Assembly (NCBI GenBank): GCA_038063535.1
Contig: JBBTUV010000004.1
Span: 114,238 to 178,237 of the forward strand
Reading direction: 5' to 3'
DNA: 64,000 nucleotides
DNA from: Patescibacteria group bacterium
Lineage (GTDB): Bacteria; Patescibacteriota; Minisyncoccia; Phycocordibacterales; UBA9973
Shown here in pieces: positions 3,793 to 56,579 of the stretch. A program made the position numbers and the translations under genes. The notes under the pieces are model-generated. The model searched no databases, was not told where the DNA came from, and saw only the letters and a list, made by a program, of their open reading frames with translations. How positions within the stretch are numbered: position 1 is the stretch's first letter; the number at the start of each line of letters is the position of its first letter.

Positions 3793-3807
3793 TCCTTAAT
3801 TATAGCA

Positions 3808-43128: not shown

Positions 43129-43146
43129 ATGTTTATTATAACATGC

Positions 43147-47951: not shown

Positions 47952-47965
47952 GATAACTAATTATA

Positions 47966-48646
47966 TCAAACTTTTTGCGTTATTTCCTTCACGATCTTTC
48001 CGTCATCGAGGTGAATGATACGGTTGCAGTACTTGGCATATTCATCCTCGTGAGTGACCATCACTATCGTCTGGCCCTTCTGATTCAATTCCTTGAAGAG
48101 TTCGATCACGGCACTGCCGGAGACGCTGTCGAGGTTCGCGGTCGGCTCGTCGGCAAAGAGAATTTTCGGCCTGTGGGCAATGGCACGAGCGACCGCGACC
48201 CGCTGCTGTTCTCCGCCGGAGAGCTGACTGGGCAGGTTCTCGAACCGGTGCCCGAGCCCCACTTTTCCAAGCGCCTCCTCGGCGTTTTTATAAGCAGCGC
48301 TTTTGTCCATGTCCTGCATGAGCAGCGGCAGAACGACGTTCTCGAGCGCGCTCATTTCCGGAAGCAAGGCGTAATCTTGAAACACATATCCGAGACGAGT
48401 CAGACGGAAAAAAGTCTTTTCGCCGATGGTCATCGCGTGGGTATCGCGTCCATCGACCTCGATCTCTCCGCTCGTCGGCTCGTCAAGAAGGCTCATCTGG
48501 TAAAGAAAAGTGCTCTTGCCCGCTCCAGAGCGCCCTATGATGCCGATGAACTCTCCATTCTCCGCTACAAAGTCTATGCCCTTGAGTACATCGGTCACCT
48601 GATCTCCGTCTTTGAATGATTTTTTTAAATTTTTTACTTTGATCAT
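47966..48646 (-). CDS. ABC transporter ATP-binding protein (MacB/LolD-like)
   Basis: Start placed at MIKVKNLKK; Walker A GRSGAGKST; LSGGEQQRVAVARA signature; Walker B ILFADEPTANLD. Confidence 0.85.
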   Translation of the reverse strand: MIKVKNLKKSFKDGDQVTDVLKGIDFVAENGEFIGIIGRSGAGKSTFLYQMSLLDEPTSGEIEVDGRDTHAMTIGEKTFFRLTRLGYVFQDYALLPEMSALENVVLPLLMQDMDKSAAYKNAEEALGKVGLGHRFENLPSQLSGGEQQRVAVARAIAHRPKILFADEPTANLDSVSGSAVIELFKELNQKGQTIVMVTHEDEYAKYCNRIIHLDDGKIVKEITQKV

Positions 48647-54469: not shown

Positions 54470-55513
54470 ATGGAAAATTTTTTGATTATCATCATTGCGG
54501 TTTTGGCGGGAGGGGTCGCGGCGTATTTCTTCTTCGGGCAGAGAAAGGAAGAGAAGAAAGACGTCGGGCTTGACCTGATACTCCAGCAACTGAACGAGCT
54601 CTCGCGCACGGTGGACACGAAGCTCGGCGAATCGCACAAGCAGGTGAACGAGAGCTTGCGCTTTCATTCTAGTGAATCGAATAAAATCATCCGCGATGTG
54701 ACCGAGCGCCTGACTCGACTGGATGAAACGAACAAACAGGTAATTTCCTTCGCCGACCAGCTGCAGAGCCTCGAGAATATTTTAAGAAATCCGAAGCAGC
54801 GTGGCGTACTCGGGGAATACTATCTCGAGACTGTGCTCAAGAACGTCCTGCCGCCCGGCTCTTACCAAATGCAATATGAGTTCCCCGACAAAACCATCGT
54901 CGATGCCGTAGTCTTCGTGAAAGATAAGATCATCCCGATAGACTCGAAATTCTCACTCGAGAATTACAACCGCATCGCCGAAGAGCGCGACCCGGCGGAG
55001 AAAAAAAGATTGGAAGCCATATTCTTGAATGACCTCAAAAACCGCATAACCGAAACGGCGAAATATGTGCAGCCGACCCAAGGCACGACTGATTTTGCCT
55101 TCATGTTCATCCCCCACGAGGCGATTTATTACGATCTCTTGGTCAACAAAATCGGCGCGATCACGGATGACACCGAGAACCTGATCCAGCGCGCGGCCGG
55201 CAAATATAAAGTCATCATCACTTCCCCAACCTCGTTCCTCGCATACCTCCAGACCGTGCTCCAGGGCTTGAAGGCGCTCCAGATCGAGGAATCCGCTAAA
55301 GAAATAATCAAGAAAGTAGAGGACTTGGGTAGACACCTTAAATCATATGATGAATTTCACGCCAAGCTCGGGAATGCACTTTCCACAGTCGTGAATCACT
55401 ACAATACTTCCGGCAAAGAGCTCAGGAAGATCGACAAGGACGTCCTGCGCATCGCCGGCACTTCTCCGGAACTCACGCTGATTGAAGTGGAGAAGCCGAA
55501 GGTGGGGGAATAG
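54470..55513 (+). CDS. rmuC: DNA recombination protein RmuC
   Basis: N-terminal TM plus long coiled coil; C-terminal RmuC nuclease-like region (FAFMFIPHEAIYYDLL). Confidence 0.85.
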   Translation: MENFLIIIIAVLAGGVAAYFFFGQRKEEKKDVGLDLILQQLNELSRTVDTKLGESHKQVNESLRFHSSESNKIIRDVTERLTRLDETNKQVISFADQLQSLENILRNPKQRGVLGEYYLETVLKNVLPPGSYQMQYEFPDKTIVDAVVFVKDKIIPIDSKFSLENYNRIAEERDPAEKKRLEAIFLNDLKNRITETAKYVQPTQGTTDFAFMFIPHEAIYYDLLVNKIGAITDDTENLIQRAAGKYKVIITSPTSFLAYLQTVLQGLKALQIEESAKEIIKKVEDLGRHLKSYDEFHAKLGNALSTVVNHYNTSGKELRKIDKDVLRIAGTSPELTLIEVEKPKVGE

Positions 55514-55601
55514 ATTTGACGGAAAAAAGAGAAAGGGGTAGTATAGAAATACCCTGGGGGAACTCTCAATACCCGAAGTATTTTTTTGTTTTTGGCTCCT
55601 C

Positions 55602-55629
55602 TTGTTTTTTTATTATTTAGTGATATAAT
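55602..55629 (+). promoter_or_regulatory. Strong sigma70-like promoter (TTGTTT-16-TATAAT) directing transcription into the GC-rich locus
   Basis: Near-consensus boxes with 16-nt spacer; predicted start near 55636. Confidence 0.5.
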
Positions 55630-55635
55630 ATATTT

Positions 55636-56000
55636 AGATACTAGTTCCCAATCCCCCGCACCCGCATGGAGGTTAGATGAACCATCATCCGCGTTTTCCG
55701 AAGGTGGAAGGTATCCCCAAAGTCCACCTGCTAGAGGTGTGTAAGCTGGGGCAACCGGGGGAGGCGTGTCCTATGATAGTACACGTCTACTTTGACGACA
55801 CGAAGCGGTGTGGGCGCAACGACCCCCTGCCACCCCCGCCGTCAGTGACCGCTCAAGGGAAGCAGCCCTTGTGGTGTTCCGGCCACCCGAATTACAAGTG
55901 CTCAACTCCCGCGCCGCAACCCGCGGCATGAAAGGAATTCCCACCTGCAACCCCGTCCCGGTAAATACCGGGGCGGGCACGGCAAAGAGCTTTTCTTTCG
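55636..56000 (+). ncRNA. Candidate structured RNA with SRP-RNA domain-IV-like motif (tentative, boundaries approximate)
   Basis: GC-rich relative to flanks; nested hairpins; GUCAGUGACC..GGGAAGCAGCC at 55841-55867 resembles the SRP RNA helix-8 consensus GUCAGGUCC-GGAA-GGAAGCAGCC; own promoter; next to a tRNA; ORFs open in several frames. Confidence 0.3.
55677..55931 (+). CDS. Alternative reading of the same locus: 84-aa Cys/Pro/His-rich small protein
   Basis: Perfect GGAGG 4 nt before ATG (rare here), promoter upstream; 5 Cys, PPPP stretch; mutually exclusive with or overlapping the ncRNA hypothesis. Confidence 0.25.
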   Translation: MNHHPRFPKVEGIPKVHLLEVCKLGQPGEACPMIVHVYFDDTKRCGRNDPLPPPPSVTAQGKQPLWCSGHPNYKCSTPAPQPAA

Positions 56001-56089
56001 AAAGACAACAACGTGGAAGCGCTTGTAGAAAATAGATGCACCTGGATGTTGAAACATACTTCGACGTCTGGGGCATTTTTAGTTTAGAG

Positions 56090-56118
56090 TTCAAATTTTT
56101 ATTTAAAAATGTTATATT
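56090..56118 (+). promoter_or_regulatory. sigma70-like promoter for tRNA-Glu (TTCAAA-17-TATATT)
   Basis: Boxes read directly; tRNA starts ~10 nt after the -10. Confidence 0.4.
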
Positions 56119-56127
56119 GCAGATGAT

Positions 56128-56199
56128 GGCCTCATCGTCTAACGGTCAGGACACAAGCTTCTCAAGCTTGGAATCGGAGTTCGATTCTCCGTGAGGTCA
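56128..56199 (+). tRNA. tRNA-Glu (anticodon CUC)
   Basis: Acceptor GGCCTCA/TGAGGTC, D arm GTCT/GGAC, anticodon stem CAAGC/GCTTG with loop TTCTCAA, T arm CGGAG-TTCGATT-CTCCG, discriminator A. Confidence 0.85.
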
Positions 56200-56579
56200 C
56201 CGCCCCTTAAACTAAAAGGGCCTCGCAACGTCTACGTCGCAAGGCCGCGGGTTCTCCGCCATTCCCGCAAGGCGCTCTTCTTTTTGCATTCTAGCGAGGG
56301 TGCCTGGTGACAAAAAAGAGCCACCAAAAAATCCTCACCCACGCCAGAGTGAGGAGAACCCCCACTACGACAAGGAGCCTCCACTCGGGATCAATCGCCG
56401 GCATCTCTACACCTTCCTTCCTTGAGAGAACGAGCGAGCTCGGCGGACCTCGCGAGCTCGAAGGCCACCATACCGACGCCGGCCACAAAGACCGGCAGAA
56501 AAATCAGCCACCGCATACGCTCTCCTGGTCAGGGTTCCAAGAAACTCTACATGCAAAAACCAAAAAAGTCAAGGAAAAA

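What the first reader, a model, noticed from the sequence alone, without database searches (positions are those of the whole stretch)
55600..56085. Promoter-driven GC-rich locus between rmuC and tRNA-Glu: SRP-RNA-like structured RNA and/or an 84-aa Cys/Pro-rich protein with a rare perfect SD
A near-consensus promoter (TTGTTT-16-TATAAT, 55602-55629) fires into a ~450-nt stretch that is visibly more GC-rich than its surroundings and is open in several frames on both strands.

Support for a structured RNA:
- It contains nested hairpins, for example TCCCCA..CACC-tgctaga-GGTG..TGGGG and CCCGGT-AAAT-ACCGGG.
- At 55841-55867 the sequence GUCAGUGACC-GCUCAA-GGGAAGCAGCC matches the bacterial SRP RNA helix-8 consensus GUCAGGUCC-GGAA-GGAAGCAGCC on both strands of the helix, but with a hexaloop instead of GGAA.

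Support for a protein:
- The same DNA carries GGAGG 4 nt upstream of an ATG (55677) opening an 84-aa ORF rich in Cys, Pro and His. This is notable because almost no other gene in the window has an SD.

Either a divergent ffs (SRP RNA) gene or a small Cys-rich protein (or both) would be missed by standard annotation.
Basis: partly seen in the sequence, partly recalled or inferred. Interest (0 to 1): 0.65.

Follow-up and report, generated by a model that had tools for sequence, protein, structure and literature searches.

The report
Unannotated small four-cysteine protein gene
The GC-rich stretch between rmuC and tRNA-Glu is not an SRP RNA but a real, previously uncalled 84-residue protein gene with its own promoter, ribosome-binding site and terminator, and it belongs to a rare, uncharacterised four-cysteine protein family of Paceibacteria (candidate phyla radiation).

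Summary

The SRP or structured-RNA reading fails:
- No Rfam family matches, even at E<=10.
- The ORF part folds no better than shuffles (z -0.75).
- The "SRP helix-8" string GGGAAGCAGCC is simply the codons Gly61-Lys62-Gln63-Pro64. Homologues keep only GGN-NNN-CAG.

The protein reading holds:
- A profile search of 1.84 billion proteins finds 10 small homologues (81-132 aa).
- Four Cys plus P14, G61, Q63 and G69 are invariant.
- Identity by codon position is 0.50/0.51/0.32 over all pairs.
- Against the closest homologue, pS is 0.87 and pN is 0.18 in the N-terminal third.
- Six of eight informative loci place the gene 120-250 nt from tRNA-Glu(CTC).

Excess RNA structure is confined to the 3'UTR (z -5.9), which holds an 11-bp hairpin and an intrinsic terminator.

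There is no match in Pfam, NCBIfam, PHROGs or PADLOC, by sequence to PDB chains, or by fold to solved PDB structures. Function is unknown. My inference is a cytoplasmic Cys4 metal-binding small regulator.

Three features remain unexplained. The promoter and 5'UTR are more conserved than synonymous sites. GC3 is consistently above host genes. The mRNA is leadered with an SD in a largely leaderless genome. Interest is modest.

The parts
55602..55629 (+). Promoter: a weak -35 TTGTTT (55602-55607), a 16-nt spacer, and an extended -10 TGATATAAT (55621-55629).
   Evidence: Read from the sequence. TGNTATAAT is 9-fold enriched in the window, and three of the other copies lie just upstream of a listed long-ORF start. 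The region is about 83% identical to the same region upstream of homologue P0003 in L172, although synonymous sites are saturated. Promoter activity was not tested.
55636..55676 (+). Inferred 5'UTR of about 40 nt, containing the SD GGAGG (55668-55672). It also holds a 4-codon upstream mini-ORF, ATG GAG GTT AGA TGA (55666-55680), whose stop overlaps the main ATG.
   Evidence: The transcription start is inferred from the -10 position. TAGTTCCCAAT and CATGGAGGT are identical in L172. An SD-like core (GGAGG, AGGAG, GAGG or GGAG) is present in four homologous loci. A mini-ORF with the same ATGA overlap is present in L172 (read from sequence).
55677..55931 (+). CDS of an 84-aa protein: MNHHPRFPKVEGIPKVHLLEVCKLGQPGEACPMIVHVYFDDTKRCGRNDPLPPPPSVTAQGKQPLWCSGHPNYKCSTPAPQPAA. 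The invariant family residues are P14, C22, C31, C45, G61, Q63, C67 and G69.
   Evidence: tblastx gives a syntenic hit in L015. The Smith-Waterman score is 94 against 26 +/- 4.8 in 20,000 shuffles. A profile search returns 10 true homologues. Identity by codon position is 0.50/0.51/0.32. Against L172, pS is 0.87 and pN is 0.18 in the N-terminal third.
55841..55867 (+). The 'SRP helix-8-like' string. It lies inside the CDS and encodes S-V-T-A-Q-G-K-Q-P.
   Evidence: Homologues conserve only GGN NNN CAG, the Gly-x-Gln codons. No SRP model matches.
55952..55977 (+). 3'UTR hairpin of 11 bp, CCCGUCCCGGU-AAAU-ACCGGGGCGGG. It is nested in a larger stem spanning 55929-56000.
   Evidence: The 3'UTR fold has z -5.86, and no shuffle of 200 did as well. 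GC-rich hairpins at the same place occur in L166, L169, L170, L172, L176 and L015. Its role as an mRNA stabiliser or processing barrier is inferred.
56041..56080 (+). Intrinsic terminator: a 13-bp stem at 56041-56072, followed by GCATTTTTAG.
   Evidence: Found by the terminator scan and in the fold. An equivalent terminator precedes the tRNA-Glu promoter in many related loci.
56110..56201 (+). Neighbouring unit, conserved linkage partner: the tRNA-Glu promoter TGTTATATT (56110-56118) and tRNA-Glu(CTC) (56128-56201).
   Evidence: ARAGORN and Rfam identify the tRNA. The motif AAAAATGyTATATT recurs upstream of tRNA-Glu in most of the 89 related spacers listed. tRNA-Glu(CTC) lies 120-250 nt from the small gene in the window, L015, L166, L169, L170 and L172.

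Best explanation
The locus is a self-contained, monocistronic protein-coding transcription unit of about 445 nt in a Candidatus Nomurabacteria / Paceibacteria (CPR) genome.

Anatomy:
- An extended -10 promoter, TGATATAAT.
- A conserved 5' leader of about 40 nt with a GGAGG Shine-Dalgarno.
- An 84-codon ORF.
- A 3'UTR with a strong GC-rich hairpin.
- A Rho-independent terminator.
- Directly after it comes the separately promoted tRNA-Glu(CTC).

Shown: the product belongs to a rare, uncharacterised family of 80-130-aa proteins with four invariant cysteines (C-x8-9-C-x9-14-C-x19-23-C). The family also has an I-P motif, a V-C-x-x-G-x-x-G-A-C motif and a G-x-Q-x3-C-x-G-x-P motif.

Inferred:
- The protein has no signal peptide or hydrophobic segment, so it is a cytoplasmic Cys4 metal-binding (most likely Zn) mini-protein.
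- A basic patch follows the third Cys, suggesting it acts by binding a nucleic acid or a partner protein, that is, as a small regulator.
- Its expression is controlled through the unusually conserved promoter and leader.

The SRP-like string and the hairpins inside the ORF are by-products of a GC-rich coding sequence.
For: Family and coding signal:
- tblastx finds an 81-aa ORF in the same rmuC-to-tRNA-Glu slot of L015, aligned without gaps over 85 codons.
- The alignment score is 94 against shuffles at 26 +/- 4.8, with 0 of 20,000 reaching it. Codon-position identity is 0.54/0.41/0.26.
- A profile search of 1.84e9 representatives gives 10 small proteins at E from 1e-42 to 1e-4.
- The alignment shows invariant P14, C22, C31, C45, G61, Q63, C67 and G69.
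- Ten CDSs give all-pairs codon-position identity of 0.50/0.51/0.32.
- Against the closest homologue, pS is 0.87 and pN is 0.18 over the first 36 aligned codon columns.
- A tandem paralogue that keeps all four Cys sits next to the homologue in L166.

Expression signals:
- The extended -10 is enriched 9-fold in the window.
- SD-like cores are present in four homologous loci (L166, L169, L170, L172), against 13% of host genes.
- A terminator follows the gene.

Against an RNA gene:
- No Rfam family matches.
- The ORF segment has z -0.75.
- The SRP-like nucleotides are not conserved.
Against: - Expression and translation are not shown. There are no transcriptome, ribosome-profiling or peptide data.
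- Host-like codon usage is absent. The ORF scores below all 196 in-frame host windows, and gene callers skipped it.
- Metal binding and the regulatory role are inferred only from the Cys pattern and composition.
- The AlphaFold model is only moderately confident (pLDDT 69, pTM 0.50). It matches no solved fold.
- The family is tiny, and each cluster returned by the second database search holds a single member sequence.
Confidence: 0.9

Rival explanations
1. The transcript is a divergent SRP RNA (ffs) or another large structured non-coding RNA, and the ORF is incidental.
For: The + strand of 55630-56100 folds better than every one of 100 shuffles (z -4.59), while the - strand does not (z -1.69). 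A 27-nt string resembles the SRP helix-8 consensus. The GC content exceeds that of the surroundings.
Against: - No Rfam hit for SRP, RNase P, tmRNA, 6S or any other family, even at E<=10 on 801 nt. No tmRNA is found.
- The excess structure lies entirely in the 3'UTR (z -5.86). The ORF part, which carries the SRP-like string, has z -0.75.
- Homologues conserve amino acids, not nucleotides. Third codon positions are near random, and GGGAAGCAGCC is reduced to GGN NNN CAG.
- The hairpin at 55716-55752 is broken in the closest homologue.
Confidence: 0.02
2. The transcript has two functions. Besides encoding the protein, its conserved leader and/or its hairpin-rich 3'UTR act as RNA elements. These could be an operator or translational-control leader, or a 3'UTR-derived small RNA or processing barrier next to the tRNA.
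For: - The promoter and leader are about 83% identical between the window and L172. Housekeeping murF/ftsI DNA is 63% identical, and synonymous sites of the adjacent codons are saturated.
- The 3'UTR has z -5.86.
- A heptamer, CATCGCA, followed by a hairpin with different stem sequences recurs in four homologous 3'UTRs.
- GC3 is higher than in host genes in all four genomes tested.
Against: - Only two independent sequences support the leader conservation, and part of it is simply the promoter.
- The leader is too short (about 40 nt) for a typical riboswitch, and no Rfam cis-element matches.
- A hairpin plus a terminator is ordinary 3' end architecture.
- The window's own 3'UTR lacks the exact CATCGCA heptamer.
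Confidence: 0.15
3. The gene is horizontally acquired cargo in a variable slot next to tRNA-Glu, a small island, rather than a native gene. That would explain its high GC and atypical codon usage.
For: - The rmuC-to-tRNA-Glu spacer ranges from 3 to about 1,900 nt among 89 relatives (up to about 2,200 nt in loci where the tRNA is inverted). It holds different genes in different genomes: GreA-like, DksA/TraR-like, HTH and 8xMP.
- The family is patchily distributed. It is absent from about 155 loci with RmuC up to 89% identical over the best-matching segment.
- GC3 of the gene against host genes is 0.69/0.59, 0.48/0.23, 0.69/0.46 and 0.64/0.39.
- The codon-usage score is below all host gene windows.
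Against: - No integrase, repeats or att-like duplication flank it in the window.
- It is not found in viral contigs.
- Synonymous sites are saturated between the closest pair, so there was no recent transfer.
- The same position next to tRNA-Glu, with murF downstream, is kept in L172. This fits vertical descent with losses.
Confidence: 0.2
4. The ORF is a spurious or decaying open frame in GC-rich DNA.
For: High GC lowers stop-codon frequency, and five other ORFs of 49-107 aa overlap the region. Codon usage is atypical.
Against: Only this frame has homologues. Length, start and four Cys are conserved in 10 family members. The pN/pS pattern indicates purifying selection.
Confidence: 0.02

Closest known systems
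Uncharacterised predicted proteins P0001-P0008, P0010 and P0011. These are hypothetical proteins of Paceibacteria/Nomurabacteria MAGs, for example in JAYSNU010000072 (L015), CAZVBK010000003 (L166) and Ga0209542_10006596 (L172).
   Same: They have the same length class, the same N-terminal M-x-H-H-P-R start, the same four invariant Cys and G-x-Q-x3-C-x-G-x-P motif, and in most cases the same position next to tRNA-Glu(CTC).
   Different: Identity is 28-44%. The window protein has a Pro-rich insertion (PLPPPP) and an extra C-terminal Cys (C75). None has an assigned function or a Pfam, NCBIfam, PHROG or PADLOC family.
DksA/TraR C4 zinc-finger proteins (PF01258)
   Same: They are small, Cys4 and cytoplasmic. 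A DksA/TraR-type gene occupies the same rmuC-to-tRNA-Glu slot in four related genomes.
   Different: There is no Pfam match. The Cys spacing is C-x8-C-x13-C-x21-C rather than two CxxC pairs, and no coiled-coil is predicted. The resemblance is positional and compositional only.
Bacterial SRP RNA (4.5S / Bacteria_small_SRP RF00169, Bacteria_large_SRP RF01854)
   Same: There is a single 27-nt string with GUCAG...GGAAGCAGCC, as in helix 8.
   Different: There is no covariance-model hit. It has a hexaloop instead of GNRA, sits inside a conserved CDS, is not conserved in homologues, and shows no excess local structure.
Cys_rich_VLP (PF14194)
   Same: It is a small Cys-rich bacterial protein. One family member (P0003) gives a sub-threshold match (E 0.19, 12 bits against a cut-off of 27).
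   Different: The match is far below threshold, occurs in 1 of 10 members, and there is no VLP motif. I treat it as a chance match.

Membership tests
Bacterial SRP RNA (Rfam RF00169 / RF01854) | The covariance-model score reaches the family's gathering threshold. | tested here: not met
   There is no SRP match at gathering score in the 64-kb window. There is none at E<=10 in 55450-56250 with permissive filters.
Bacterial SRP RNA (Rfam RF00169 / RF01854) | The helix-8 (domain IV) motif is conserved at nucleotide level, with a GNRA tetraloop. | tested here: not met
   The window has a hexaloop, GCUCAA. In nine homologous genes only GGN NNN CAG is kept, which are the Gly-x-Gln codons.
Bacterial SRP RNA (Rfam RF00169 / RF01854) | A stable extended hairpin supported by compensatory changes. 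| tested here: not met
   The ORF segment has z -0.75. The substitution pattern has codon periodicity and is not pairwise. The hairpin at 55716-55752 is broken in L172.
Bacterial SRP RNA (Rfam RF00169 / RF01854) | It is the only ffs of the genome. | not testable with these tools
   Only 64 kb of the genome is available. The whole MAG would have to be scanned with RF00169 and RF01854.
tmRNA / RNase P RNA / other Rfam families | A match to a model, or a tRNA-like domain with a tag ORF. | tested here: not met
   ARAGORN finds no tmRNA. cmscan finds no family in the region.
Unnamed Paceibacteria Cys4 small-protein family (P0001-P0011) | Four invariant Cys at the aligned positions, plus I-P, V-C, G-x-Q and C-x-G motifs, and a length of about 80-130 aa. 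| tested here: met
   Alignment A2 has invariant P14, C22, C31, C45, G61, Q63, C67 and G69. The window ORF scores 113 bits, E 6e-33, against the family profile. The profile includes the window ORF itself.
Unnamed Paceibacteria Cys4 small-protein family (P0001-P0011) | Conservation is at the protein level, with purifying selection on the reading frame. | tested here: met
   Codon-position identity is 0.50/0.51/0.32. pS is 0.87 against pN 0.18. The pairwise score lies about 14 sd above shuffles.
Unnamed Paceibacteria Cys4 small-protein family (P0001-P0011) | The Cys4 site binds metal. | not testable with these tools
   This is inferred from the invariant Cys only. The model is of moderate confidence, and its coordinates could not be inspected.
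DksA/TraR zinc finger (PF01258) | A CxxC-x17-CxxC zinc finger that matches the Pfam model. | tested here: not met
   There is no Pfam hit for any of the 10 members at E<=1. The Cys spacing differs.
Sigma-70 extended -10 promoter | TGnTATAAT at a suitable distance upstream of the transcribed gene. | tested here: met
   TGATATAAT lies at 55621-55629. The motif occurs 6 times against 0.66 expected, and three of the other copies precede listed long-ORF starts. Activity was not tested.
Intrinsic (Rho-independent) terminator | A GC-containing stem-loop followed by a T-run. | tested here: met
   A 13-bp stem at 56041-56072 is followed by GCATTTTTAG.

The most novel reading that the evidence does not exclude
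The family is a tRNA-Glu(CTC)-linked Cys4 metal-binding regulator. Its leadered, SD-dependent mRNA, with a promoter and leader under stronger constraint than synonymous sites and consistently GC-enriched codons, is a specially controlled transcript in an otherwise largely leaderless CPR genome. It could be a stress or metal sensor acting on transcription or on tRNA-Glu use. That would be analogous in role to the GreA-like and DksA-like genes that occupy the same slot in sister genomes.
Probability: 0.1. Interest if true: 0.55.

Novelty: new member of a known kind. Interest (0 to 1): 0.3.

Why it matters
- It removes a false lead: there is no SRP RNA here.
- It adds a real gene that automated annotation missed in this strain.
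- It defines a small, lineage-restricted Cys4 protein family in Paceibacteria, a group with tiny genomes where many small proteins are of unknown role.
- The locus is a clean example of how a GC-rich small CDS can mimic a structured RNA, both in fold z-score and in a consensus-like motif.
- It flags three testable oddities: a leader more conserved than synonymous sites, SD-dependent initiation in a mostly leaderless genome, and persistent linkage to tRNA-Glu(CTC).

Tried and rejected
- Rfam gathering search on the window, and an E<=10 search on the locus: nothing but the tRNA.
- blastn and nhmmer of the 471-nt region against 165 syntenic loci from relatives: only identical-strain contigs matched.
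- Word-index protein search with the 84-aa ORF: no hit. Exact-product look-up: not on record.
- All-against-all comparison of spacers: the only shared DNA is the tRNA-Glu promoter region.
- Pfam, PHROGs, NCBIfam, PADLOC and PDB sequence searches of the family: no significant match.
- Viral contig scans with the leader motif and with the protein: nothing.
- Alternative ORFs (107 aa on the - strand, 75 aa on the + strand, and others): no homologues and non-coding codon scores.
- The 65-aa ORF on the - strand, downstream of the tRNA: no homologue in any locus, and unrelated to the 75-aa gene at that place in L172.
- Literature searches: nothing relevant.

Full report
**Observation**

The window comes from a Candidatus Nomurabacteria / Paceibacteria (CPR) genome. 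Relatives of its RmuC are all MAGs of that group, and identical contigs come from Hainich groundwater and other metagenomes.

Between rmuC (54470-55513, +) and tRNA-Glu(CTC) (56128-56201, +) lie 614 nt.
- TTGTTT-16-TATAAT at 55602-55629.
- GC of 0.60-0.63 between 55700 and 56000, against 0.38-0.40 in the flanks.
- Several open frames on both strands.
- The two hairpins.
- The 27-nt SRP-like string at 55841-55867.
- GGAGG at 55668-55672, 4 nt before ATG 55677, which opens an 84-codon ORF ending at 55931.

The -35 is weak (3 of 6), so the consensus scanner skipped it. The -10 is the extended form TGATATAAT. TGNTATAAT occurs 6 times in the window against 0.66 expected, and three of the other copies sit just upstream of the listed start codon of a long ORF.

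The remark that SD sequences are rare is right. Only 1 of 52 long ORFs has GGAGG upstream, and 7 of 52 have any 4-mer core. Many genes carry TGnTAtAAT 6-8 nt before the ATG, so they look leaderless.

**The RNA hypothesis**

- cmscan against all 4,227 Rfam families finds only the five tRNAs at gathering score.
- On 55450-56250 at E<=10 it finds nothing inside the locus. In particular there is no SRP, RNase P, tmRNA or 6S match.
- ARAGORN finds no tmRNA.
- The whole + strand transcript folds better than shuffles (z -4.59; - strand z -1.69).
The leader plus ORF (55636-55931), which holds the SRP-like string and the TCCCCA...TGGGG hairpin, has z -0.75.
- The 3'UTR (55929-56082) has z -5.86. It holds an 11-bp hairpin (55952-55977) and a terminator (56041-56072 plus a T-run).

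**The protein hypothesis**

DNA searches of the region against 165 syntenic loci from relatives found only identical-strain contigs. A word-index protein search also found nothing.

tblastx, however, hit one relative, L015, in the frame of the 84-aa ORF. There an 81-aa ORF (NCBI protein P0001) lies in the same slot just upstream of tRNA-Glu.
- The two proteins align without gaps from Met1.
- The Smith-Waterman score is 94, against 26 +/- 4.8 for 20,000 shuffles, with a maximum of 58.
- Nucleotide identity by codon position is 0.54/0.41/0.26, with chance at about 0.25 (BLASTP).

A two-sequence profile searched against 1.84 billion representatives returned ten small proteins of 81-132 aa, at E from 1e-42 to 1e-4. 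It also returned two repeat-protein artefacts.

The 11-sequence alignment has invariant P14, C22, C31, C45, G61, Q63, C67 and G69. I13, V21, A30 and L34 are nearly invariant.

For ten CDSs recovered as DNA, all-pairs codon-position identity is 0.50/0.51/0.32. Against the closest homologue (P0003, L172), pS is 0.87 and pN is 0.18 over the first 36 aligned codon columns. In L166 a tandem paralogue that keeps all four Cys sits directly upstream.

The frame is therefore under purifying selection as a protein.

The SRP-like GGGAAGCAGCC is the codon run Gly61-Lys62-Gln63-Pro64. Homologues keep only GGN NNN CAG.

**Why annotation missed it**

- On the two contigs of the same strain that contain the whole ORF (L081, L084), no gene was called there.
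- The exact product is not on record.
- Its codon-usage score (-0.12) is below all 196 in-frame 84-codon windows of host genes.
- Its GC3 exceeds that of host genes. The same holds in three other genomes: 0.69 against 0.59, 0.48 against 0.23, 0.69 against 0.46, and 0.64 against 0.39.

**Context**

In the window, L015, L166/L167, L169 and L170 the gene is followed by this sequence of elements:
1. A GC-rich hairpin and/or a terminator.
2. The conserved tRNA-Glu promoter, AAAAATGyTATATT.
3. tRNA-Glu(CTC) on the same strand.

In L172/L174 the tRNA is inverted but still 250 nt away, and murF/ftsI follow as in the window. L176 and L171 show no tRNA within 260-450 nt.

A divergent sub-branch (P0006, P0011) lies after a SWIB-domain gene, with no tRNA nearby.

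The rmuC-to-tRNA-Glu spacer is a variable slot, from 3 to about 1,900 nt in 89 relatives. Elsewhere it holds these genes:
- GreA-like genes in 12 loci.
- DksA/TraR-type genes in 4 loci.
- HTH genes in 3 loci.
- 8xMP membrane-protein genes in 3 loci.

About 155 loci whose RmuC is up to 89% identical over the best-matching segment lack the family.

**Regulatory regions**

Between the window and L172, the promoter and leader (64 nt) are about 83% identical. TAGTTCCCAAT and CATGGAGGT are identical in both. By contrast, murF/ftsI DNA is 63% identical, and synonymous sites in the adjoining codons are saturated.

This points to selection on the promoter and leader themselves rather than to recent transfer. 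It rests on two independent sequences only.

SD-like cores recur in four homologous loci: GGAGG in L172, AGGAG in L166, GAGG in L169 and GGAG in L170.

**Function**

- No Pfam, NCBIfam, PHROGs or PADLOC family and no PDB sequence matches.
- The AlphaFold2 model from 11 sequences is moderate (pLDDT 69, pTM 0.50; helix 15-20, beta-hairpin 34-45, helix 55-59).
- The family was not found in viral contigs.

From the four invariant Cys, the lack of a signal or membrane segment, and the basic stretch after Cys45, I infer a cytoplasmic Cys4 metal-binding (probably Zn) mini-protein that acts by binding a partner. This is inference, not a result.

**Verdict**

- The SRP or structured-RNA interpretation is refuted.
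- The small-protein interpretation is supported at about 0.9 confidence.
- The item is a new, previously uncalled member of an uncharacterised but already sampled family. Interest is modest (0.3).
- Three features remain unexplained: the constraint on the leader, the GC3 excess, and the linkage to tRNA-Glu.

Noticed in passing
window, whole; for example 3799-3807(-), 43135-43143(-), 47960-47968(-): Most genes in the window lack an SD. Many have an extended -10 (TGnTAtAAT) only 6-8 nt before the ATG, so this Paceibacteria genome appears to use mainly leaderless mRNAs.
   Followed up: partly
L013, L017, L026, L035, L041 (two copies), L063, L111, L123, L144, L166 6415-6460: between the tRNA-Glu promoter and the tRNA: In about a dozen relatives, a hairpin sits between the promoter and the mature tRNA-Glu. 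Its 5' arm copies the first roughly 12 nt of tRNA-Glu (GGCCyyATCGyC...GGACGATrG). It could be a tRNA-like leader or a remnant of duplication or integration. It is absent in the window.
   Followed up: no
window 56110-56118, and the last 40 nt of most of the 89 related spacers (L001-L165): The tRNA-Glu promoter block TTTT..AAAAATGyTATATT is the only DNA shared among the otherwise unrelated rmuC-to-tRNA-Glu spacers.
   Followed up: yes
rmuC-to-tRNA-Glu spacers of L011, L056, L057, L065 and others (GreA-like); L029, L041, L110, L138 (DksA/TraR); L002, L008, L097 (8xMP); L018, L104, L115 (HTH): The same slot holds different small genes in different genomes. Two kinds are predicted RNA-polymerase secondary-channel factors: GreA C-terminal-like (E 1e-4, below the Pfam cut-off) and the DksA/TraR zinc finger (E 2e-8).
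   Followed up: partly
L166 5750-6001: A tandem paralogue of the Cys4 family lies directly upstream of P0007. Its stop abuts the next ATG. It was not called as a gene in that record; a different 146-aa ORF was called instead.
   Followed up: partly
window 55666-55680; L172 about 168-187: A mini-ORF lies in the leader (MEVR* in the window, MEVIR* in L172). Its TGA overlaps the main ATG as ATGA, and the SD lies inside it. It is not present in the more distant homologues.
   Followed up: no
L015 6403-6409, L170 959-965, L176 321-327, L172 434-440 (3'UTRs): An invariant heptamer, CATCGCA, lies 5-17 nt after the stop codon. It is followed by a hairpin whose stem sequence differs between loci, and then by the terminator. 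The window has only a similar CACCTGCAAC.
   Followed up: partly
window 56202-56579: A GC-rich (0.56-0.61) stretch of 380 nt lies between tRNA-Glu and the 3' end of murF (-). It has two terminator-like hairpins on the - strand (56246-56219 and 56355-56332). Its ORFs (65 aa on -, 130 aa on +) have no homologue in any fetched locus. L172 has an unrelated 75-aa membrane-like gene at this position.
   Followed up: partly
L177 904-1302 (P0006): The annotated GTG start of P0006 lies inside the upstream terminator hairpin (ccccacatGTGTGGGGTTTTTG). The true start is probably about 30 codons downstream, which would give a protein of family-typical length.
   Followed up: no
window versus loci L001-L165: The window genome is about 50% GC, whereas all related Paceibacteria loci recovered are 27-46% GC. 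No relative closer than about 89% RmuC identity (best-matching segment) was found other than the same strain.
   Followed up: no
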